Shown here: one piece after another, positions 31,081-48,477 of the stretch
How positions within the stretch are numbered: the stretch's first letter is position 1
Layout: every line of letters begins with the position of its first letter
NCBI GenBank assembly: GCA_038239115.1
Contig: JBBSFD010000001.1
Coordinates: 51,399 to 115,398, forward strand
Source: Candidatus Limnocylindrales bacterium
Lineage (GTDB): Bacteria; Chloroflexota; Limnocylindria; Limnocylindrales; CSP1-4
DNA length: 64,000 nucleotides
Direction of reading: 5' to 3'
Program-made: the position numbers and the translations under genes
Notes under the pieces: model-generated
What the model was told of the DNA's origin: nothing
The model's input: the letters and a program-made list of their open reading frames with translations, nothing else
Database searches by the model: none

Positions 31081-31683
31081 CTACTCCGAGAAGCGCTCTT
31101 CCTTCCACGGATCGGCGTCGTTGTTGTAGCCGTAGCGCTCCCAGAAGCCGAGGATGTCCTGGTCGAGGAACTCCAGGCCGCGAATCCACTTTGCGCTCTT
31201 CCAGAAGTAGCGCTTGGGGACGAGCAGCCGGAGCGGCCAGCCGTGCTCGAGCTCGAGCGGCTCGCCACCGAACGTGTGGGCCAGCAGGACGTCCTCGTCG
31301 TCCAGGATCGACAGGGGCAGGTTGGCGGTGTAGCCCTGCTCCGAGTGAGCCAGCACGAACTTCGCGGCGGGTCGCAGCTGCGCCCGGCTGAGGATCTCCT
31401 GGATTGGCACGCCTTCCCAGGTCGTGTCGAGCTTCGTCCAGCGGGTGACGCAGTGGATGTCGGTCTGAACCGTCTTGCGCGGTAGCGCCTTGAACTCGGT
31501 CCAGGTCAGGCTGAACGGGCTGTCGACCTCTCCGAACACCTTGAAGTCCCAGGTCGCCAGGTCTGTTTTGGGCGTCGAGCCGTAGTGCAGGACCGGGAAC
31601 TTCTCGGTCCGATACTGGCCGGGCGGGATGCGCACGGCGATCGCCGGATCCTGGGTCTTGCCGCCAAACACTCGCTCGAACAT
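31081..31683 (-). CDS. sulfite oxidase-like molybdopterin-binding oxidoreductase (MsrP/YedY-like catalytic domain)
   Basis: Conserved HCVTRWT molybdenum-ligand cysteine region and the GWPLRLLVP motif. Confidence 0.8.
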   Translation of the reverse strand: MFERVFGGKTQDPAIAVRIPPGQYRTEKFPVLHYGSTPKTDLATWDFKVFGEVDSPFSLTWTEFKALPRKTVQTDIHCVTRWTKLDTTWEGVPIQEILSRAQLRPAAKFVLAHSEQGYTANLPLSILDDEDVLLAHTFGGEPLELEHGWPLRLLVPKRYFWKSAKWIRGLEFLDQDILGFWERYGYNNDADPWKEERFSE

Positions 31684-31695
31684 ATCCGCTCCCTG

Positions 31696-31731
31696 GACTC
31701 GCCCGACTCGCCCGACTGGCCCGACTGGCCC
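31696..31731. repeat. 9-nt tandem repeat, 4 copies (GACTCGCCC x2, GACTGGCCC x2), filling the intergenic gap
   Basis: Read directly; lies between the stop of the 31733..33361 membrane gene and the start of the sulfite-oxidase-like gene. Confidence 0.7.
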
Positions 31732-31732
31732 G

Positions 31733-33295
31733 CTACGGCGCCGGATCGATCCGGTCCACCCAGTAGCCGTTGGCCGGGCTGGCCAGCAGCGGGGTCACCT
31801 TGATCGAGCCAATTATCGTCGGACTGCTCACCTCGAGGAAATCGAAGGCCGGGTCCGGCTCCGAACGCTGGTCGTGGAACACGATCTGGCCCGCCCGCGG
31901 GAAGCTGCCGTCGGTGCGCAGGCTGGCCGGCAGGCCCGAGCCAACCTGGCCAACCGGCAGCCCGAGGTCGACCATGAACTGGGGCTTGAGCAGGGTCGGC
32001 ACCAGCAGGGCCGCCGGTTCGTTGGCGGCCGGCCCGGGCCAGTCGGACACCCCGGGGATCGCAGCCACGGCCTTGCGGATCGTCGGCAGCGCGTCGCGCG
32101 CGTCGCGCTCGATATCGAGGTTGCCCCGGATCGTGAGGCGGAGGGCCCGATTCGTCGGGGCGAACGGCGTCGAGGCGACGAGGACGACGATCGCGGTGAG
32201 CGCCACGATCGCGGTCGGTCGCGCCCAGGCGGGAGCACGCGGACGATCCAGCAGCCGCCCGACCGCCGGCCCCAGGCTCGGAATCGCGAGGGCCCCGAAG
32301 CCGATCGCGGCGGCAACCATGATCGAGATGTCGATCGGGTCGAGGTAGCGCGCCGAGACATAGATTCGGCGGGCCGCCAGCAGGACCAGGAACGCCGCGA
32401 CGCCTGGGCCCATGGCCGCCAGGCCAACGAGCAGGGCCCAGTGCCGTCCTCGCCACAACACGAGGACGCCAAGGGCAGCCAGGACCCCGAAGATCCCGAG
32501 CTTCAACACGTGCTCGGCGATCAGCACGATCCAGGTGCCCGGCCCGGTCAGGGTCAGGCCGGCCGAGCCGATGCCCGGCACAGCCTCCGAGTAGAGCGCG
32601 TTGCCCGCGAGCAGCCAGTCGTGGGCGAACTGGATCGGCACGGCCAGCAACCCGATCAAGACCAGCCACGGGCGTCGATCCGGCGCGGGCCGCTGGCCGA
32701 TGCGGGCGCTGGCCCAGGTGGCGACGAGGACGACCAGGGCGAGGCCGGGGATCAGGACCACTTCGATCCGGGCCAGGCCGGCGAGGGCCAATGCGACGCC
32801 CGCCCAGGCGTAGCGCGGCCGCGCCCCGCTGGCCGCCAACCCGGCCAGCAGGCAGCCGGCGAAGGCCCAGCCGACCGCGTAGCTCAGGGAGGCGTCCTTG
32901 AGCAGGGCTTCGAGGCCGATCACGGCCAGACCCGCGAACGTCGCACCCGGCATCCCGGCGAATCGGCGGACGAGCGCGGCGGCCAGGACGGCCGTGCTGC
33001 CCAGCACGGCGATGGCCAGCCACGAGATCGGCCGCCAGTCGTGGAAGACGTTGTAGACGAGCCCGTAGACCACGGTCAGCAGGGGCTTGGGCGTGGTGCC
33101 CACGAAGCCCTCCAGGTGGCGGCCCTGGATCAGCCGGTCGAAGTACAGCACGGACGCCGTCGCATCGAAGCCGACCTGGCCGGCCCGGACCGGCAGGATC
33201 ACGTAGAAAGCGGTCGCGCTGGCGGCCACGAAGAGCAGGACGTAGCCGGCGTACACCGCCCGGCGACCCACGAATCCGGTCGCCCACGCCCTCAT
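31733..33295 (-). CDS. large polytopic membrane protein (putative glycosyltransferase or envelope protein); C-terminal extracytoplasmic domain
   Basis: About 11 TM helices followed by a roughly 170-aa soluble domain; start at MRAWATGF (alternative 33361); divergent from the GT2 gene. Confidence 0.5.
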   Translation of the reverse strand: MRAWATGFVGRRAVYAGYVLLFVAASATAFYVILPVRAGQVGFDATASVLYFDRLIQGRHLEGFVGTTPKPLLTVVYGLVYNVFHDWRPISWLAIAVLGSTAVLAAALVRRFAGMPGATFAGLAVIGLEALLKDASLSYAVGWAFAGCLLAGLAASGARPRYAWAGVALALAGLARIEVVLIPGLALVVLVATWASARIGQRPAPDRRPWLVLIGLLAVPIQFAHDWLLAGNALYSEAVPGIGSAGLTLTGPGTWIVLIAEHVLKLGIFGVLAALGVLVLWRGRHWALLVGLAAMGPGVAAFLVLLAARRIYVSARYLDPIDISIMVAAAIGFGALAIPSLGPAVGRLLDRPRAPAWARPTAIVALTAIVVLVASTPFAPTNRALRLTIRGNLDIERDARDALPTIRKAVAAIPGVSDWPGPAANEPAALLVPTLLKPQFMVDLGLPVGQVGSGLPASLRTDGSFPRAGQIVFHDQRSEPDPAFDFLEVSSPTIIGSIKVTPLLASPANGYWVDRIDPAP

Positions 33296-33388
33296 CGGCG
33301 GAGTATACGCAGCCGTCCTGGGCCGGTCCGAGCCGGACTGCGAGAATCGATTCGGGACCATGTCCCGGATGCGGTAGGCTACCGCCCC

Positions 33389-34201
33389 GTGAACCCCCCA
33401 TCACCCGAACCGACGGCGCCGGACGGTCCGACCAGTTCGACCAGTTCGGCCGCGCCCCGGGTGATCGTGGTCATGCCTGCCTACAACGCGGCCCAGACCC
33501 TGGAACGGACCTACGCTGACATCCCCTTTGACGTGGTCGATCACATCATCCTGGTGGACGATGTGTCCAAGGACGAGACGGTCGATATCGCCAAGCATCT
33601 CGGCCTGCAGGTCGTGGTCCATCGCCAGAACCGGGGCTACGGCGGCAACCAGAAGACGTGCTACGACACGGCCCTGGCCGAAGGCGCCGACGTGGTCGTC
33701 ATGCTCCATCCCGACTACCAGTACGACGCCACGCGAATCCCCGAGCTGATCGCGCCGATCGTCGCGGGCGAGCGCGACCTGATGCTCGGCAGCCGCTTCC
33801 TGGGCAACCCGCTGGCCGGTGGGATGCCCCGCTGGAAGTACGTCAGCAACCGCTTCCTGACCGGCGTCGAGAACATGGTCTTCGGCCTGCACCTGTCCGA
33901 GTACCACACCGGCCTGCGGGCCTACAGCCGAGCCCTCCTCGAGGCGATCCCGTACCAGCTCAACAGCAACGATTTCGTGTTCGACCAGGAGCTCATCGCC
34001 CAGGTCGTGGCGGCCAAGCGCTTCCGGATCGGCGAGATCGGCGTGCCCACCCGCTACTTCGAGGAGGCCAGCTCGGTCGGCTTCAAGCGCAGCGTGGTCT
34101 ACGGCCTGGCGACCCTCGGGGTGGTCGTCCGCTACATGCTCCACGCGACCCGCATCCGGCGCTCGGCCCAGCTGACCGCTCGCAACCGCCCGACGGGCTA
34201 G
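33389..34201 (+). CDS. family 2 glycosyltransferase (polyprenyl-phosphate sugar transferase, DPM/GtrB-like)
   Basis: VIVVMPAYNAAQTL, ILVDDVSKDETV, VVVMLHPDYQYD and GSRF GT2 motifs; start is GTG at 33389 (alternatives 33461 or 33473). Confidence 0.8.
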   Translation: MNPPSPEPTAPDGPTSSTSSAAPRVIVVMPAYNAAQTLERTYADIPFDVVDHIILVDDVSKDETVDIAKHLGLQVVVHRQNRGYGGNQKTCYDTALAEGADVVVMLHPDYQYDATRIPELIAPIVAGERDLMLGSRFLGNPLAGGMPRWKYVSNRFLTGVENMVFGLHLSEYHTGLRAYSRALLEAIPYQLNSNDFVFDQELIAQVVAAKRFRIGEIGVPTRYFEEASSVGFKRSVVYGLATLGVVVRYMLHATRIRRSAQLTARNRPTG

Positions 34202-34204
34202 CCG

Positions 34205-35209
34205 ATGCGCGGCCGAAGAGGCTCGATCGGGCGGGTCGCGATCGGCCTGGTCATCTCCGTCGTCTCGCTGTGGCTCGTCCTGAGCTCGGTGAACTTGGGC
34301 GAGGCCTGGGATGTGATCCGAACCGCCAGCCCGGCATGGCTGGTCGTCGGGTTGCTGTTCCTGTCGGCCGACGTGCTCGTCCGGGCCGTCCGCTGGCAGC
34401 GCCTGGTCCTGCCCATCAAGCGCGTCCGCTACGGTCCGATCCTCGAGTACACCCTGGTCGGCTACCTGGCCAACAACGTCCTGCCGGCCCGCCTGGGCGA
34501 GCTCGTCCGCTGCCACTACCTGGGCGATCGCGAGAAGGTCAGCCGGGCCTCGGCGCTGGGCACGGTGGTCGTCGAACGGGTGGTCGATGCGGCCGTGGTC
34601 GTCGCCATCGCCGCGGCAGCGATCCTCGTCCTGCACGTGCGCGGCGTCGTGGCCAGCGCGATCCTGGTCGGGCTGGCCGTCGTCGGCCTGCTGGTCGTGG
34701 CCCTGGCGATCGGGATCGCCGCCCATCGCCTGCCCGGCGCCCGCCGCCTCGGAGGGCTGGTCGAGCGCTGGCCGAGCGTGGCCGAGGCGGCCCGCCGCCT
34801 GCGCGATGGCCTGGCCGTGGCCGGCCGGCCACGGACGCTGGCCGAGGCGCTGATCCTGACCGTCGTCGCCTGGAGCGCGACCGTGGTGGCGTTCGCCGCG
34901 ATCGGCCAGGCGATCGGCCTGCACCTGCTCATCGGTGAGGCGGCCCTGCTGGCGTCCGGTGTGGCCCTGGCCACGGCGATCCCGTCCGGCCCGGGCTACC
35001 TCGGCACGTACGAGCTGGCGGCCGTGAAGATCGCCGAAGCGCTCGGCCAATCGACCGAGCAGGCCTTCGCCCTGGCCCTCCTCGCCCACGCCTCCGTCCT
35101 CATCCTAACCAGCGTCGCCGGCGCCGGAGCGTTCATCCGCCTGGGCTGGACGAGCAGCGTGCACGAGGTCGAGGACGTGATCGCGGGCCGGCCCGACCCG
35201 GCGCCGTAG
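34205..35209 (+). CDS. flippase-like membrane protein (lysylphosphatidylglycerol synthase TM-region / UPF0104 family)
   Basis: Multi-TM protein of the family that commonly partners GT2 transferases (YLANNVLPARLGELVRCHYL). Confidence 0.7.
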   Translation: MRGRRGSIGRVAIGLVISVVSLWLVLSSVNLGEAWDVIRTASPAWLVVGLLFLSADVLVRAVRWQRLVLPIKRVRYGPILEYTLVGYLANNVLPARLGELVRCHYLGDREKVSRASALGTVVVERVVDAAVVVAIAAAAILVLHVRGVVASAILVGLAVVGLLVVALAIGIAAHRLPGARRLGGLVERWPSVAEAARRLRDGLAVAGRPRTLAEALILTVVAWSATVVAFAAIGQAIGLHLLIGEAALLASGVALATAIPSGPGYLGTYELAAVKIAEALGQSTEQAFALALLAHASVLILTSVAGAGAFIRLGWTSSVHEVEDVIAGRPDPAP

Positions 35210-35284
35210 CGGCCTCCTTCCGCGCGGTTCCGTGCCGCGGCGATCGTTCCTGACCTCGGCTGCGTTCGTGCCCCGTCGCCGAGT

Positions 35285-35490
35285 GTGTGTTCTCAGTTCC
35301 GCAAAAGGTCCATATGGGGACCCGTTCGGGCGTGGCCCGGCCATTCGGAGCCTCTGCGCCCGGTCTTCGGGCGAGTATTCGTCCTGGCCCACGCTCAGGT
35401 CCGCCCAGCGATCGACACGATGAGGTCGTGGCCGGGAGGGCCGCCTCGCCAAGGCCCTCAGATTGCAGTTTTGCGGTTCTGAGTGCACAT
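35285..35490. repeat. about 200-bp non-coding block bounded by inverted repeats (CTCAGTTCCGCAAAA ... TTTTGCGGTTCTGAG; 13/15 complementary); MITE-like or structured-RNA candidate
   Basis: Arms at 35292-35306 and 35469-35483, flanked by GTGTGT / TGCACA; lies within the 680-bp convergent non-coding region 35210-35890. Confidence 0.4.
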
Positions 35491-35743
35491 CCCGACGCGG
35501 CAGGCCCGGGCCCCGCCCCGGGCCGGCGGCCGCGCCGCCGCCGAGAGCCGGCCCCGAAGCGATGTTGCGTGGGGTAGGACAAAACCGAGGTTTCGGCCGC
35601 GCCAGGCTTGCTCGGGGCTCCATCGCGGGCGAACTTCCGCACCTGTTGAGCGTGGCTCGGGATAGCCTCGGCCCATTCGAGCCAGCTGGAGCCGGTCTCG
35701 GGCTTCGAAAGGCCCGTTTGGCCTATGGCACGCACCGTTGCGC

Positions 35744-35810
35744 GAGCCGCCGAGCCGCCGAGCCGCCGAGCCGCCGAGCCGCCGCGCCCCGCAGAGCCGG
35801 CCCGGCCCGG
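35744..35810. repeat. compound tandem repeat: (GAGCCGCC)x4 then (GGCCC)x4
   Basis: Read directly at 35744-35775 and 35791-35810. Confidence 0.7.
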
Positions 35811-35890
35811 CCCGGCCCCAAGAGGCACCCGGAATCGAAGAGCCCCCGGCGCGAGGCCGAGGGCTCCTGGAATTGCGGCGCGATCGACGC

Positions 35891-36802
35891 TTACTTCACG
35901 AAGCCGTTCGTCTGGAGCCAGGACTTCGCGACGGCGGCGATGTCCTTCTTGTCGACGGACACCTGCTTGCCCAGGTCGGTCAGGGTGGTAGTGTCCATCT
36001 TGGCCGAGACGGCGTTCAGGAGCGCCTCGAACGAGGTCTTGTCGACCTTGGCGAGGTAGTCGTTGCGGACGAGCGGCGCGATGTTGTCGGCCGGCTGCGT
36101 CTGCTTGTCGTCCTGGAGGGCGACCCAGCCATTGACGGCGATGTCCGGCTGAGTCGAGCACAGCTCGCCGACGTCGATCGTCTTGCCCAGCAGGGCCTGG
36201 GCCATCGGGGTGTCGCACGCCGATAGCAGGGTTGCCTTGGACAGGTCCAGCCCGTACGCGGCCTTGAGCGCCGCACCGCAGACCGGGTTGGTCGGGCAGT
36301 CGGTCGCAACGCCGAACTTGAGCTGGGCCTGGACCGCGGTCAGGTCGCTCATCTTGGTCAGGTGGAACTGGGCCGCGGTGTCCGCCCGGACGACGAACGT
36401 GTTCTGGTCCGCTGCCGGCGAGAAGTTCAGGACGGTGATCCCACCACCCTTGCCATTCATGACGTTCTGCAGCTCGGTCTCATTGGCCGCCGGATCGCCG
36501 GTCTGCTTGCCCGATTCGTAGAATGCGAGCGCGCTGCCGATGTACTCAGGAACCATGTCGAGTTGGCCGCTCACGAGAGCCGGCTCGAATACCTTGCGAC
36601 CGCCGATGCCGAGACCCGTCCGATCGACGGTGTAGCCGTTGGCTTCCAGATCCTGAGCGTAGATCTCGGCCATCAACTTGGATTCATAAAACGTGTCTGA
36701 ACCAATCTTGATCGTGGGCTTGCTGCTGCCCCCTCCCGACGAACAGGCGCTCAAGAGCACCATCATCGCCGCCCCGAGGGCTAGCGCGCGGTTAAGCCGC
36801 AT
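35891..36802 (-). CDS. ABC transporter substrate-binding lipoprotein, glycine betaine/choline (OpuAC/ProX family)
   Basis: Lipoprotein signal MRLNRALALGAAMMVLLSAC; OpuAC-like fold. Confidence 0.8.
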   Translation of the reverse strand: MRLNRALALGAAMMVLLSACSSGGGSSKPTIKIGSDTFYESKLMAEIYAQDLEANGYTVDRTGLGIGGRKVFEPALVSGQLDMVPEYIGSALAFYESGKQTGDPAANETELQNVMNGKGGGITVLNFSPAADQNTFVVRADTAAQFHLTKMSDLTAVQAQLKFGVATDCPTNPVCGAALKAAYGLDLSKATLLSACDTPMAQALLGKTIDVGELCSTQPDIAVNGWVALQDDKQTQPADNIAPLVRNDYLAKVDKTSFEALLNAVSAKMDTTTLTDLGKQVSVDKKDIAAVAKSWLQTNGFVK

Positions 36803-36910
36803 GTGGGTATGCCTCCTCCTGATAAGCGCCGCCCAGGCGGGCGGCGACTGGCTGGTCGACTATAGCAGCGACCTCGTCGGGAGCCGTCATGAACCGATTC
36901 CCAGAGACGA

Positions 36911-37606
36911 CTACGCGGGTTCCCCCCGGGCGGATGAACGGGCCTGTCGCAGGCCGGGCGAAGTCAGTCCGCGCTGGAGCAGGGCGAAGCCGCCCTCCGC
37001 GGCCAGGGCCAGGGCCGCCACCAGGAGGACGCCGCCGTACAGCTGGCCGTCGTCGTTCTGGGCCACGCCATCGACCAGGTAGCGGCCGAGCCCGCCGAAG
37101 CCGAAGATCGCCCCCAGGGTGGCGGTGGCGATCACCTGGACGGCCGCCGAGCGGAGGCCCCCGCCGATGACCGGCAGGGCGATCGGGACCTCGACCCGGC
37201 CCAGGATCTGGCGTTCGCGAAAGCCCATCCCACGGGCGGCCTCGACCAGCTCGCGATCGACCCCCGAGACCCCGGCATAGGCGTTCACCAGGATCGGCGG
37301 GATGGCCAGGATGATCATCGCGATCAAGGTCGGGTAGACCCGGAAGCCGAGGTCGGGATCGATCGCCTGGGTGATCGGGAGCACGATCCCGATGGCGGCC
37401 ACCGACGGGATCGCCCGACCGATGTTGGCCAGGTTCACGGCCAGGGTGGCCGCCCGCCCGGTGTGCCCGATCCAGACGCCGATCGGCAGGGCGATCAGGG
37501 AGGCGATCAGGAGCGACAGCGCCGAGATCCCGACCTGCTCGGCCAGTCGGAGCGGGATCCCGTTCGGGCCGGACCAGTTCACTGGGTCAAGAAGCCACTG
37601 GATCAT
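36911..37606 (-). CDS. ABC transporter permease (OpuBB-type)
   Basis: Start at MIQWLL (ATG at 37606) overlapping the upstream permease by 4 bp; EAA-like loop GVDRELVEAARGMGF. Confidence 0.8.
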   Translation of the reverse strand: MIQWLLDPVNWSGPNGIPLRLAEQVGISALSLLIASLIALPIGVWIGHTGRAATLAVNLANIGRAIPSVAAIGIVLPITQAIDPDLGFRVYPTLIAMIILAIPPILVNAYAGVSGVDRELVEAARGMGFRERQILGRVEVPIALPVIGGGLRSAAVQVIATATLGAIFGFGGLGRYLVDGVAQNDDGQLYGGVLLVAALALAAEGGFALLQRGLTSPGLRQARSSARGEPA

Positions 37607-38304
37607 CCGGTTGGCCCCCCGGCCGGCCCGACCACGATCTGCTCGAAGGTCGGCCGACTCGGCGGCTGGCTTGAGGCCCATGGGGTGAGCCGGCGCTGGA
37701 CCCGGACCAAGATCAAGTCGATGGCGATGGCCAGCAGGATCGAGGGAACCGCGCCGGTCAGGATCTCGGTGGGAAAGAACCGGTGGTAGCCCTCGAAGAT
37801 GAAGAAGCCAAGCCCCCCAAACGAGTCGCCCAGGGTCGCGGTGATCGTGACCAGGCCAATGGTCGAGACGCTGGCCAGGCGCAGGCCGGCCACCATCAAG
37901 GGCACGGACAGGGGCAGGACGATGCGCTGGAACCGCTCCCGGCGGTTGTAGCCCATCCCGTCGGCTGCGTCGAGCACGTCGCCGGGCGTCGCGTCGAAGC
38001 CGGCCACGATGTTCCGGACCAGGATGACCAGGGTGTACATGATCAGGGGGATCTCGGCCGTGTAGATCGTCAGGCCGGTGACCGAGACGAGGGCGGCGAA
38101 CACGGCCAGGCTGGGGATCGTGTAGAGAAGGCCGGCAAAGCCGCTGATCAGGGGATAGGTCGAGCGCCGCGACTGGACCAGGACGGCGAGGGCGAACGAG
38201 ATGGCGAAGCCGAAGAGCACGGCGATCGCGGCCAGCTCGAGGTGCTGGATCGTCCGGCTGAGGATGGCCCCAAGGTGGTCGCCGATCCAGCCCCAGTCGA
38301 TCAC
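37603..38304 (-). CDS. ABC transporter permease
   Basis: Six TM helices; GFDATPGDVLDAADGMGYNRRERF permease loop. Confidence 0.8.
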   Translation of the reverse strand: MIDWGWIGDHLGAILSRTIQHLELAAIAVLFGFAISFALAVLVQSRRSTYPLISGFAGLLYTIPSLAVFAALVSVTGLTIYTAEIPLIMYTLVILVRNIVAGFDATPGDVLDAADGMGYNRRERFQRIVLPLSVPLMVAGLRLASVSTIGLVTITATLGDSFGGLGFFIFEGYHRFFPTEILTGAVPSILLAIAIDLILVRVQRRLTPWASSQPPSRPTFEQIVVGPAGGPTG

Positions 38305-39506
38305 GAGCCGGCCTGTGAACCTGCCAGGGGGCTGACGGAGCCGTGCGATTGGAGGAACGCTCCGATCAGGTCGGTCGTGACCAGGCCCTTCAGGCGGCCG
38401 TCGCGATCGACCACGATGCCGGTGTGGACGTCCGCGTCGAGCATCATCGAGAGAGCGTCCTTGAGGGTGGTCTGGCCCGACAGGAGGGGCGACATCGGGA
38501 TGGCCATTGCCTCAGTCAGGACGCCGTCGCCGGGGATGTCCAGGTCGCGCACCCAGCCGACCGGCCGGTCGGCGGCATCGACCAGCAGGAGGTACGGGAA
38601 CGGGTCGGCCGCCGCCCGTTTGCCGGCGGGGCCGGCCGGCTCGCCGATCCGGCCGACCACGGCCGGCCGGAGCTCGACCTCGCTAATCCGGCTGAGCGAC
38701 AGCCGCTTCAGGCCGCGATCGGCGCCCACGAAGCGGGCCACGAAGTCGGAGGCGGGATTGGCCAGCAGCTCGGTCGGGGTGCCGTACTGGGCGACCCGGC
38801 CGCCCTGCTCGAAGACGGCCACGAGGTCGCCCATCCGGATCGCCTCATCGATGTCGTGGGTAACGAACAGGATCGTCTTGGCCAGCTCCTCCTGAAGGCG
38901 CAGGAACTCGTGCTGCAGCCGTTCCCGAACGATGGGATCGACCGCTCCGAAGGGCTCGTCCATGAGCATGATCGGGGGATCCGCCGCCAACGCCCGGGCC
39001 ACCCCCACCCGCTGGCGCTCGCCGCCCGACAGCTGGCCGGGAAACCGGCCGGCGTAGCGGGCCGGGTCGAGGCCGACCAGCCCGAGCAGCTCCTCGGAGC
39101 GTTCCTTGACCCGGGCGGCAGGCCAGCCCAGAAGGCGGGGCACCGTGCCCACGTTCTCGATGATCGTCTGGTGCGGGAACAGGCCGGTCTGCTGGATCAC
39201 GTAGCCGATGCCCCGGCGCAGCTCGGTCACGTCCCGGCTGGCCGCGTCCACGCCGCCCAGCAGGATCCGGCCCGAGGTGGGTTCGATCAGCCGGTTGACC
39301 ATCTTGAGCGAGGTCGTCTTGCCGCAGCCCGAGGGGCCGACCAGGACGCAGATCTTGCCCGCCGGAATCGACAGCGACAGGTCGTTGACCGCGCCCGGCG
39401 TCGGCGTCTGGCCGGCCCCCGAGTGGGGCCGGGCCGGGGCCGGGCCGTAGACCTTGCTGACGTGCTCGAACTCGACGGTGGCGGCGGTGGCGCGTTCTTT
39501 GGTCAT
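38301..39506 (-). CDS. ABC transporter ATP-binding protein with a C-terminal CBS pair (OpuAA/ProV-type)
   Basis: Walker A GPSGCGKTT, signature LSGGERQR, Walker B IMLMDEPF; C-terminal CBS domains; start at MTKERA (ATG at 39506). Confidence 0.85.
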   Translation of the reverse strand: MTKERATAATVEFEHVSKVYGPAPARPHSGAGQTPTPGAVNDLSLSIPAGKICVLVGPSGCGKTTSLKMVNRLIEPTSGRILLGGVDAASRDVTELRRGIGYVIQQTGLFPHQTIIENVGTVPRLLGWPAARVKERSEELLGLVGLDPARYAGRFPGQLSGGERQRVGVARALAADPPIMLMDEPFGAVDPIVRERLQHEFLRLQEELAKTILFVTHDIDEAIRMGDLVAVFEQGGRVAQYGTPTELLANPASDFVARFVGADRGLKRLSLSRISEVELRPAVVGRIGEPAGPAGKRAAADPFPYLLLVDAADRPVGWVRDLDIPGDGVLTEAMAIPMSPLLSGQTTLKDALSMMLDADVHTGIVVDRDGRLKGLVTTDLIGAFLQSHGSVSPLAGSQAGS

Positions 39507-48401: not shown

Positions 48402-48477
48402 GGGGGAGTAGCTCAACGGTTAGAGCGGCGGGCTTATATCCCGCTGGTTCCAGGTTCGAATCCTGGCTCCCCTACCA
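48402..48477 (+). tRNA. tRNA with anticodon TAT (tRNA-Ile, AUA-decoding), CCA encoded
   Basis: Cloverleaf folded by hand: acceptor GGGGGAG/CTCCCCT (G1-U72 wobble), D-arm GCTC-AACGGTTA-GAGC, anticodon arm GCGGG-CTTATAT-CCCGC with T35A36T37 at 48435-48437, variable loop TGGTT, T-arm CCAGG-TTCGAAT-CCTGG, discriminator A, CCA. Confidence 0.75.

What the first reader, a model, noticed from the sequence alone, without database searches (positions are those of the whole stretch)
35285..35490. MITE-like element: two 15-bp inverted repeats enclosing about 160 bp
CTCAGTTCCGCAAAA (35292-35306) is the near-perfect reverse complement of TTTTGCGGTTCTGAG (35469-35483), with 13 of 15 positions complementary. 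The partially complementary flanks are GTGTGT and TGCACA. Terminal inverted repeats around a short AT-poorer core are the hallmark of miniature inverted-repeat elements. They can also mark a long-stem structured RNA.
Basis: seen in the sequence. Interest (0 to 1): 0.5.

Follow-up and report, generated by a model that had tools for sequence, protein, structure and literature searches.

The report
Orphan inverted-repeat insertion in variable spacer
The inverted repeat is real and bounds a roughly 205-bp non-coding stretch found only in one strain cluster of an uncultured Chloroflexota (Limnocylindria) bacterium, but it is single-copy wherever I could look, so it is at most an orphan MITE-like insertion and is of low interest.

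Summary
With the GTGTGT/TGCACA flanks it forms a 19-bp interrupted stem enclosing 162 nt.

It lies in a 681-bp spacer between convergent genes of a Limnocylindria MAG lineage. About 618 bp of that spacer (35213-35830) is lineage-specific; relatives have only 59-100 bp with a terminator hairpin. Element A (the finding) occurs only in the window's strain cluster. A sibling clade carries only a second hairpin element, B (35559-35741).

Points for a MITE:
- it is small and non-coding;
- it has terminal inverted repeats;
- it is present in some close relatives and absent in others;
- a 7/8 direct repeat flanks it, and the same octamer marks the junction in the A-less clade.

Points against:
- no second copy in any sequence or collection I could search;
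- direct repeats of that quality occur at 22% of random positions;
- the window holds 19 comparable inverted repeats, against 5-15 in shuffles;
- the interior has no excess structure (z -0.4);
- there is no Rfam match.

Verdict: an orphan MITE-like insertion in a hypervariable spacer. Mobility and function are unproven. Interest is low.

The parts
35286..35489 (+). Element A: the unit bounded by the inverted repeat (TGTG...CACA), 204 bp, non-coding
   Evidence: It is found only in the window and in the near-identical strains L001, L002 and L004.
35285..35306 (+). 5' arm of the closing helix (GUGUGU-U-CUCAG-UU-CCGCAAAA)
   Evidence: MFE and consensus folds pair it with 35469-35490 in segments of 6+5+8 bp, with a 1x1 and a 2x2 internal loop. 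The loop positions 35297-98 are tri-allelic among strains: TT, TA and GA.
35469..35490 (+). 3' arm of the closing helix (UUUUGCGG-UU-CUGAG-U-GCACAU)
35307..35322 (+). Inner hairpin GGUCC-AUAUGG-GGACC, carrying the only compensatory change in A
   Evidence: T35309->C together with A35320->G in L001 and L002 converts a U-A pair to C-G.
35272..35279 (.). CCCGTCGC: candidate left target-site copy. The identical octamer directly abuts B in the A-less clade.
   Evidence: Such repeats occur at 22% of random positions, so this is not significant alone.
35491..35498 (.). CCCGACGC: candidate right target-site copy (7/8 match to the left copy)
35499..35552 (.). GC-rich spacer containing the hairpin GGCCCGGG-CCCCGC-CCCGGGCC (35503-35524), followed by a third CCCGAAGC octamer at 35553-35560
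   Evidence: The hairpin sequence is unique in the window.
35559..35741 (+). Element B: a second hairpin element of about 185 nt, rod-like, conserved in the sibling clade
   Evidence: About 70% identical in L065, L069 and L070. The + strand consensus has 67 pairs, 5 of them compensatory. The B covariance model does not match A.
35743..35788 (.). Tandem octamer (CGAGCCGC)n whose copy number varies between strains
35213..35830 (.). Lineage-specific non-coding block (spacer, A, GC hairpin, B, tandem repeats), absent from relatives
   Evidence: L005, L066, L067, L072, L073 and L076 have spacers of only 59-100 bp. Several more distant syntenic relatives also have short spacers. No ORF here has a coding-like GC3, and a six-frame protein search found nothing.
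35840..35866 (.). Ancestral terminator-like hairpin (GAGCCCCCGG...CCGAGGGCUC) shared by the convergent genes
   Evidence: Conserved in L005, L066, L067, L072 and L075.
34205..35209 (+). Upstream gene: LPG_synthase_TM family membrane protein
   Evidence: Pfam PF03706, E = 1.6e-46.
35891..36802 (-). Convergent downstream gene: OpuAC-type glycine-betaine ABC substrate-binding protein
   Evidence: Pfam PF04069, E = 1.2e-39.

Best explanation
Element A is a roughly 205-211-bp non-coding insertion, bounded by inverted repeats, that sits in a hypervariable spacer between two convergent genes. It is most likely the footprint of a non-autonomous, MITE-like insertion next to an older hairpin element, B. 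Today it is an orphan with one detectable copy and is probably inert.

Shown: the inverted repeat exists. A is present in one strain cluster and absent from its nearest sibling clade and from all more distant relatives. It has no coding signal, and its only structure is the terminal stem.

Inferred: it arrived by transposition-like insertion at the octamer CCCGTCGC, which duplicated that octamer. If the LPG-synthase-like gene is read through, A would form a 19-bp interrupted stem in that gene's long 3' UTR. That stem could at most impede 3' exonucleases or polymerases arriving from the convergent gene.
For: - A is absent in the sibling clade, whose neighbouring protein is 94% identical (L065, L069, L070, L071), although that clade retains B.
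- Both A and B are absent in relatives at 81-91% protein identity, whose spacers are 59-100 bp.
- The inverted-repeat arms match 17/21, with 13/15 in the core and TG...CA termini.
- CCCGTCGC (35272-79) and CCCGACGC (35491-98) flank the unit. The A-less clade has a single CCCGTCGC directly abutting B, as expected of an empty site.
- The interior is random-like, with z = -0.43 and -0.04, as expected for a TIR-plus-filler element.
- No ORF has a coding-like GC3. There is no protein homology in any frame and no Rfam family.
- The locus is a variability hotspot. It shows four different spacer states, variable tandem repeats, and a step in divergence from 0.2% to 8-25%.
Against: - No second copy or related arm was found in the 64-kb window or in 550 kb of related Limnocylindria loci.
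- Pattern scans of metagenome and viral contigs found nothing, and neither did searches of plasmids and phages.
- An 8-bp direct repeat with at most 1 mismatch is found at 22% of random positions using the same boundary search.
- The left direct repeat lies 5-6 nt outside the stem, and a third copy of the octamer (35553-60) muddies the picture.
- The window's flanks of A do not align significantly with the sibling clade's 45-nt spacer, so the empty site cannot be reconstructed cleanly.
- Gain in the window clade and loss in the sibling clade are equally parsimonious.
- Inverted repeats of this quality are expected by chance in this window.
- Three assemblies (the window's contig, L001 and L002) run through the whole spacer, and L004 runs through A and B. 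That argues against many near-identical copies.
Confidence: 0.4

Rival explanations
1. Fast-evolving, non-functional spacer DNA at a recombination junction, in which the inverted repeat is a chance or locally generated quasi-palindrome. On this view there is no discrete element and no mobility.
For: - The window has 19 comparable inverted repeats, against 5-15 in shuffles.
- 30% of positions have an equally stable long-range duplex.
- The interior has z of about 0.
- The indel relative to L065 (about 35213/35280 to about 35537/35552) does not coincide with the repeat's ends on the right side.
- The spacer exists in at least four different states among close relatives and carries variable tandem repeats.
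- A diverges by about 3% between strains whose neighbouring gene diverges by 0.2%, so it shows no sign of constraint.
Against: - This is the only inverted repeat of its class in the window with AT-containing arms.
- The whole-element fold is in the 0.5% tail.
- The octamer at A's left edge is identical to the B-abutting octamer of the A-less clade.
- There is one compensatory substitution in an inner hairpin.
Confidence: 0.3
2. A is a young, lineage-specific structured RNA on the + strand. It could be an independent sRNA or a module of the 3' UTR of the LPG-synthase-like gene, possibly working together with B.
For: - The + strand fold is -104.3 kcal/mol (z -3.6), against -94.7 kcal/mol (z -2.7) for the - strand.
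- The closing stem survives when the whole spacer is folded on the + strand only.
- A U-A pair changes to C-G in the inner hairpin.
- The L002 allele closes the internal loop with G.U plus A-U, which works only on the + strand.
- The neighbouring element B keeps a rod-like + strand structure, with 5 compensatory pairs across about 30% divergence.
Against: - The interior has no excess structure.
- There is no sigma-70-like promoter and no intrinsic terminator consensus.
- No Rfam family matches even at E <= 10.
- A is not conserved beyond one strain cluster and is absent in a clade 94% identical in the adjacent protein.
- A does not fit the covariance model built from B.
- One substitution breaks a predicted pair and one deletion shortens the stem.
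- Expression was not testable.
Confidence: 0.2
3. A is a 6S/Ms1-type RNA that binds RNA polymerase. Such RNAs are about 200 nt with a long closing stem.
For: Only the size and the long closing stem. This was an initial lead from memory, and I checked the Ms1 literature (PMC9130861).
Against: - The Rfam 6S and related models give no match at E <= 10.
- The predicted interior is multi-branched rather than a rod with a central bubble, and it has no excess stability.
- The element is missing from close relatives, whereas a housekeeping RNA would be conserved.
- The organism belongs to Chloroflexota, not Actinobacteria, and the flanking genes are not the Ms1 synteny genes HAD-IB hydrolase and oxidoreductase.
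Confidence: 0.02

Closest known systems
Bacterial MITEs (for example Correia elements of Neisseria, RUP of Streptococcus, Nezha of cyanobacteria). The comparison rests on my general knowledge.
   Same: The size of about 200 bp, the lack of coding capacity, imperfect terminal inverted repeats of about 20-37 bp, an intergenic position close to a terminator, presence/absence between close strains, and a candidate short flanking direct repeat.
   Different: Only one copy is detectable, and no family or parent IS was found. The direct repeat is not statistically supported and does not abut the left repeat end exactly. The inverted repeat is weak (17/21).
REP/BIME-type extragenic palindromes and 3'-UTR stabiliser hairpins
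   Same: Location downstream of a stop codon between convergent genes, a stable hairpin in a read-through transcript, and clustering with other hairpin elements (B and the GC hairpin).
   Different: REPs are palindromes of 20-40 bp present in tens to hundreds of copies. Here the stem encloses 162 nt and the sequence is unique.
Lineage-specific sRNAs or 3'-UTR-derived sRNAs, and 6S/Ms1-like long-stem RNAs
   Same: A length of about 200 nt, a closing stem, a more stable + strand, and one compensatory change.
   Different: There is no Rfam match, no promoter or terminator consensus, no structured interior and no conservation beyond strain level. Expression is unknown.

Membership tests
MITE | Small (under about 500 bp) and non-coding | tested here: met
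   The unit is 204-211 bp. ORFs across it have GC3 of 0.66-0.71, against 0.88-0.94 in the neighbouring genes. A six-frame translation finds no protein at E <= 0.01 among 5.8 billion sequences.
MITE | Terminal inverted repeats | tested here: met
   The core matches 13/15, the arms 17/21, and the repeat extends to 37 nt at 70%. However, inverted repeats of this quality are not rarer than chance in this window.
MITE | Target-site duplication directly flanking the TIRs | tested here: inconclusive
   CCCGTCGC and CCCGACGC (7/8) flank 35280-35490, and the same octamer abuts B in the A-less clade. But 22% of random positions give a direct repeat of this quality, the left copy is offset 5-6 nt from the stem, and a third copy exists.
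MITE | Multiple copies in different genomic contexts (a repeat family) | tested here: inconclusive
   There were zero extra copies in the 64-kb window, in 550 kb of related loci, or in the metagenome, viral, plasmid and phage collections. The rest of this genome could not be searched, and the metagenome collection lacks even this locus. From the window alone, more than about 150 copies per 3.5 Mb is unlikely, but a low-copy family is not excluded.
MITE | Insertion polymorphism, with an empty site in relatives | tested here: met
   A is present in the window, L001, L002 and L004. It is absent in L065, L069, L070 and L071 (B only) and in L005, L066, L067, L072, L073 and L076 (neither element). 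The exact empty site is only partly reconstructible, and the direction of change (gain or loss) is unresolved.
MITE | TIRs related to those of an autonomous IS | not testable with these tools
   No IS-end database was available.
6S / Ms1 RNAP-binding RNAs | Match to the family covariance model; a rod with a central bubble; conservation and synteny across the clade | tested here: not met
   There is no Rfam hit at E <= 10. The fold is multi-branched and the interior has z of about 0. The element is absent in sibling clades. The flanking genes are not the Ms1 synteny genes.
Any curated Rfam family | Score at or near the family's gathering threshold | tested here: not met
   Searching 34000-37000 at E <= 1 gave no match. 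Searching 35260-35770 at E <= 10 gave only two sub-threshold chance matches.
REP/BIME | Palindromic unit of 20-40 bp in high copy number | tested here: not met
   The stem encloses 162 nt. The arms and the adjacent GC hairpin are unique in the window.

The most novel reading that the evidence does not exclude
A and B, which have no detectable sequence similarity but similar architecture, could represent an undescribed class of ~200-nt hairpin elements in Limnocylindria. Both are about 185-205 nt with closing stems of about 20 bp or more that end in CAAAA/UUUUG, and they share the same orientation. Such elements would insert serially at a CCCGNNGC site just downstream of a stop codon and would be maintained as + strand RNA structures. 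That would make them a mobile or expandable structured-RNA island in a 3' UTR, rather than a classical DNA MITE.
Probability: 0.08. Interest if true: 0.55.

Novelty: new member of a known kind. Interest (0 to 1): 0.2.

Why it matters
If A is a genuine MITE, it would be a first marker of active or recent non-autonomous transposition in Limnocylindria, an uncultured soil and freshwater class of Chloroflexota. It would also be a useful strain-level marker. If A and B are RNAs, they would be candidate lineage-specific sRNAs in a group with no described non-coding RNAs: my full-text search found no paper pairing Limnocylindria with non-coding RNA. On present evidence it is an ordinary, single-copy variable piece of spacer DNA and changes nothing about known biology.

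Tried and rejected
- **6S/Ms1 RNA.** This was my first guess from the size and the long stem. I rejected it on Rfam, on the element's absence in relatives, on the wrong phylum and on the wrong synteny.
- **Conserved syntenic sRNA.** Rejected. Fetching 60 loci around homologues of the neighbouring gene showed short spacers in relatives.
- **A and B as two copies of one family.** Rejected. The local alignment is marginal and non-collinear, nhmmer finds nothing, and the B covariance model does not hit A.
- **Pseudogene or small protein gene.** Rejected.
- **Copy searches.**
  - The two-arm A pattern and the conserved B motif both gave 0 hits in metagenome contigs and in viral contigs.
  - The metagenome collection evidently lacks this lineage, so those two results are uninformative.
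  - Distant blastn against plasmids and phages gave no match.
- **Six-frame translation trick.** I used it to find spuriously called ORFs from other copies. It gave no hits, and it is also uninformative because gene callers do not call ORFs here.
- **Empty-site reconstruction.** Aligning the L065 spacer to A's flanks was not significant.
- **Extending the source contig.** This was not possible. The 163-kb NCBI contig is not in the index used for locating genes.

Full report
**Observation.** The inverted repeat is present exactly as described. CTCAGTTCCGCAAAA lies at 35292-35306. Its reverse complement with two mismatches (TTTTGCGGTTCTGAG) lies at 35469-35483, and 162 nt separate them. The repeat finder extends the ungapped arms to 37 nt at 70% complementarity (35286-35322 / 35453-35489). 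In RNA or DNA folds the arms plus the GTGTGT/TGCACA flanks make a closing helix of 6+5+8 pairs (35285-35306 with 35469-35490), interrupted by a 1x1 and a 2x2 U/U loop.

**Is it more than chance?** Only marginally.
- The window, at about 72% GC, contains 19 distinct ungapped inverted repeats with 21-nt arms, at least 17/21 matches and 100-260-nt loops. Local-composition shuffles give 5-15.
- This repeat scores the minimum of 17, although it is the only one whose arms are 50% GC or less.
- An RNAduplex scan shows that 30% of + strand positions can form a long-range duplex as stable as A's closing stem.
- The whole 216-nt segment folds better than all 200 shuffles (z -3.6 as RNA, -3.8 as DNA). 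It sits in the 0.5% tail of GC-corrected 204-nt windows.
- The 162-nt interior alone has z = -0.43 on the + strand and -0.04 on the - strand. All the excess stability is therefore the terminal stem.

**Context.**
- The element lies in a 681-bp spacer (35210-35890) between two convergent genes. One encodes an LPG_synthase_TM-family membrane protein (34205-35209, +). The other encodes an OpuAC-type substrate-binding protein (35891-36802, -).
- The lineage is not an actinobacterium, as the GC content first suggested. It is an uncultured Chloroflexota of the class Limnocylindria.
- Rfam finds nothing in 34000-37000 at E <= 1, and only noise in 35260-35770 at E <= 10. The only Rfam hit in the whole window is a tRNA.
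- No sigma-70-like promoter or intrinsic terminator consensus is found.
- No ORF across the spacer has the strong GC3 bias of real genes here.
- A concatenated six-frame translation of A and B finds no protein among 5.8 billion.

**Comparative picture.** I fetched the locus from relatives through the neighbouring protein.

| Lineage (loci) | Identity to the window's LPG-synthase-like protein | Spacer content |
|---|---|---|
| Window, L001, L002, L004 | 100% | A and B; spacer about 97% identical |
| L065, L069, L070, L071 | 94% (about 90% nt) | B only, starting about 45 nt after the stop codon |
| L072, L073 | 90-91% | Neither; 61 bp |
| L076 | same 90% cluster | Neither; 59 bp |
| L066, L067 | 87% | Neither; 62-76 bp |
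| L005 | 81% | Neither; about 100 bp |
| L075 (found through OpuAC) | not applicable | A different filler of at least 120 nt next to the terminator |

- The short spacers contain only a terminator-like hairpin, which the window retains at 35840-35866.
- About 618 bp (35213-35830) is therefore lineage-specific. The finding (A, 35286-35489) is its youngest or most restricted part.
- B (35559-35741) is a second hairpin element of about 185 nt. Its + strand consensus is a long rod of 67 pairs. Five pairs show compensatory changes across about 30% divergence. The - strand consensus is poorer.
- A and B are not detectably related.
- The locus is also a recombination junction. Between the window and L001, divergence is 0.2% in the left gene, 1.5-6% across the spacer and 8-25% in the opu operon.

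**Evidence bearing on a MITE.**

In favour:
- the small size, lack of coding capacity and imperfect TIRs with TG...CA ends;
- presence/absence between very close relatives;
- a flanking direct repeat, CCCGTCGC (35272-79) and CCCGACGC (35491-98);
- the A-less clade carries a single CCCGTCGC directly abutting B, the arrangement expected of an empty site.

Against or missing:
- No additional copy of A or of its arms (up to 4 mismatches in 21) exists in the window or in 550 kb of related loci.
- Pattern scans of the metagenome and viral collections and blastn against plasmids and phages found nothing. The metagenome collection lacks even this locus, so it says little.
- An 8-bp direct repeat with at most one mismatch turns up at 22% of random positions under the same boundary search.
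- The left repeat is offset 5-6 nt from the stem, and a third octamer copy (35553-60) precedes B.
- The flanks of A do not align significantly with the sibling clade's short spacer.
- Gain and loss are equally parsimonious.
- Several independent assemblies run straight through A, which argues against many near-identical copies.

**Evidence bearing on an RNA.**
- The + strand is 9.5 kcal/mol more stable than the - strand.
- Among only six strain-level changes in A, two form a U-A to C-G compensatory pair in the inner hairpin GGUCC/GGACC (35307-35322). By my rough estimate this has about a 2-5% chance of happening randomly.
- One allele (L002) closes the internal loop with G.U plus A-U.
- Against this, one substitution breaks a predicted pair and one deletion shortens the stem.
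- The interior is unstructured, there are no transcription signals, and there is no conservation beyond one strain cluster.
- A diverges faster (about 3%) than the adjacent gene (0.2%).

**Verdict.** The independent comparative evidence shows that A is part of a lineage-specific, hypervariable non-coding block.
- The best reading is an orphan MITE-like insertion whose mobility is unproven (confidence about 0.4).
- Next is meaningless fast-evolving filler with a chance inverted repeat (about 0.3).
- Then a young structured RNA or 3'-UTR module (about 0.2).
- A 6S/Ms1-type RNA is effectively excluded.

The finding is ordinary in kind and low in interest unless copies in other contexts, or a discrete transcript, are found.

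Noticed in passing
window 35559-35741 (+); L065 2796-2981; L069 5044-5207; L070 5044-5203: A second hairpin element, B, of about 185 nt lies 70 nt downstream of the finding. It is about 70% conserved in the sibling clade. Its + strand rod-like consensus has 67 pairs, 5 of them compensatory. It has no Rfam match and is a candidate lineage-specific structured RNA.
   Followed up: partly
window 35272-35279, 35491-35498, 35553-35560: The octamer CCCGNNGC occurs three times, in register with the boundaries of A, of the GC-hairpin spacer and of B. The A-less clade has one copy, which abuts B. This may reflect serial insertion at one target, or it may be coincidence in GC-rich DNA.
   Followed up: partly
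window 35297-35298: The 2x2 internal loop of A's closing stem has three alleles (TT, TA, GA) among four otherwise near-identical strains. That is unusually variable for two adjacent sites.
   Followed up: no
window 35743-35819; L065 2983-3001: The tandem (CGAGCCGC)n has 5 copies here and 6 in L001 and L002, and (GCCCG)n follows it. The sibling clade has a different repeat, GCGGCTTAGGA, at the same place.
   Followed up: no
window 31400-39200 compared with L001: There is a sharp step in strain divergence at this spacer. The left side, including the LPG-synthase-like gene, differs by 0.2-2%, while the opuAC-permease operon on the right differs by 8-25%. OpuAC is only 89% identical although the LPG-synthase-like protein is 100% identical. 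This points to a recombination junction or allelic replacement.
   Followed up: partly
L075 1668-1790 (reverse strand): Another strain (Logan ERR15946016) carries an unrelated filler of at least 120 nt next to the conserved terminator hairpin. The spacer therefore exists in at least four states.
   Followed up: no
L065, L069, L070, L071 (contig ends); L003 (end): All four contigs of the B-only clade end inside or just after B, and L003 ends at the stop codon. These could be assembly breaks caused by strain heterogeneity, by GC-rich repeats or by a multi-copy sequence. This was not resolved.
   Followed up: no
window 35133-36218 (-): A 361-aa ORF spans the whole spacer and overlaps opuAC out of frame. 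It is an artefact of the high GC content (GC3 0.59, against 0.88-0.94 in real genes).
   Followed up: yes
window 48402-48474 (+): A tRNA gene, the only Rfam match in the whole 64-kb window.
   Followed up: no
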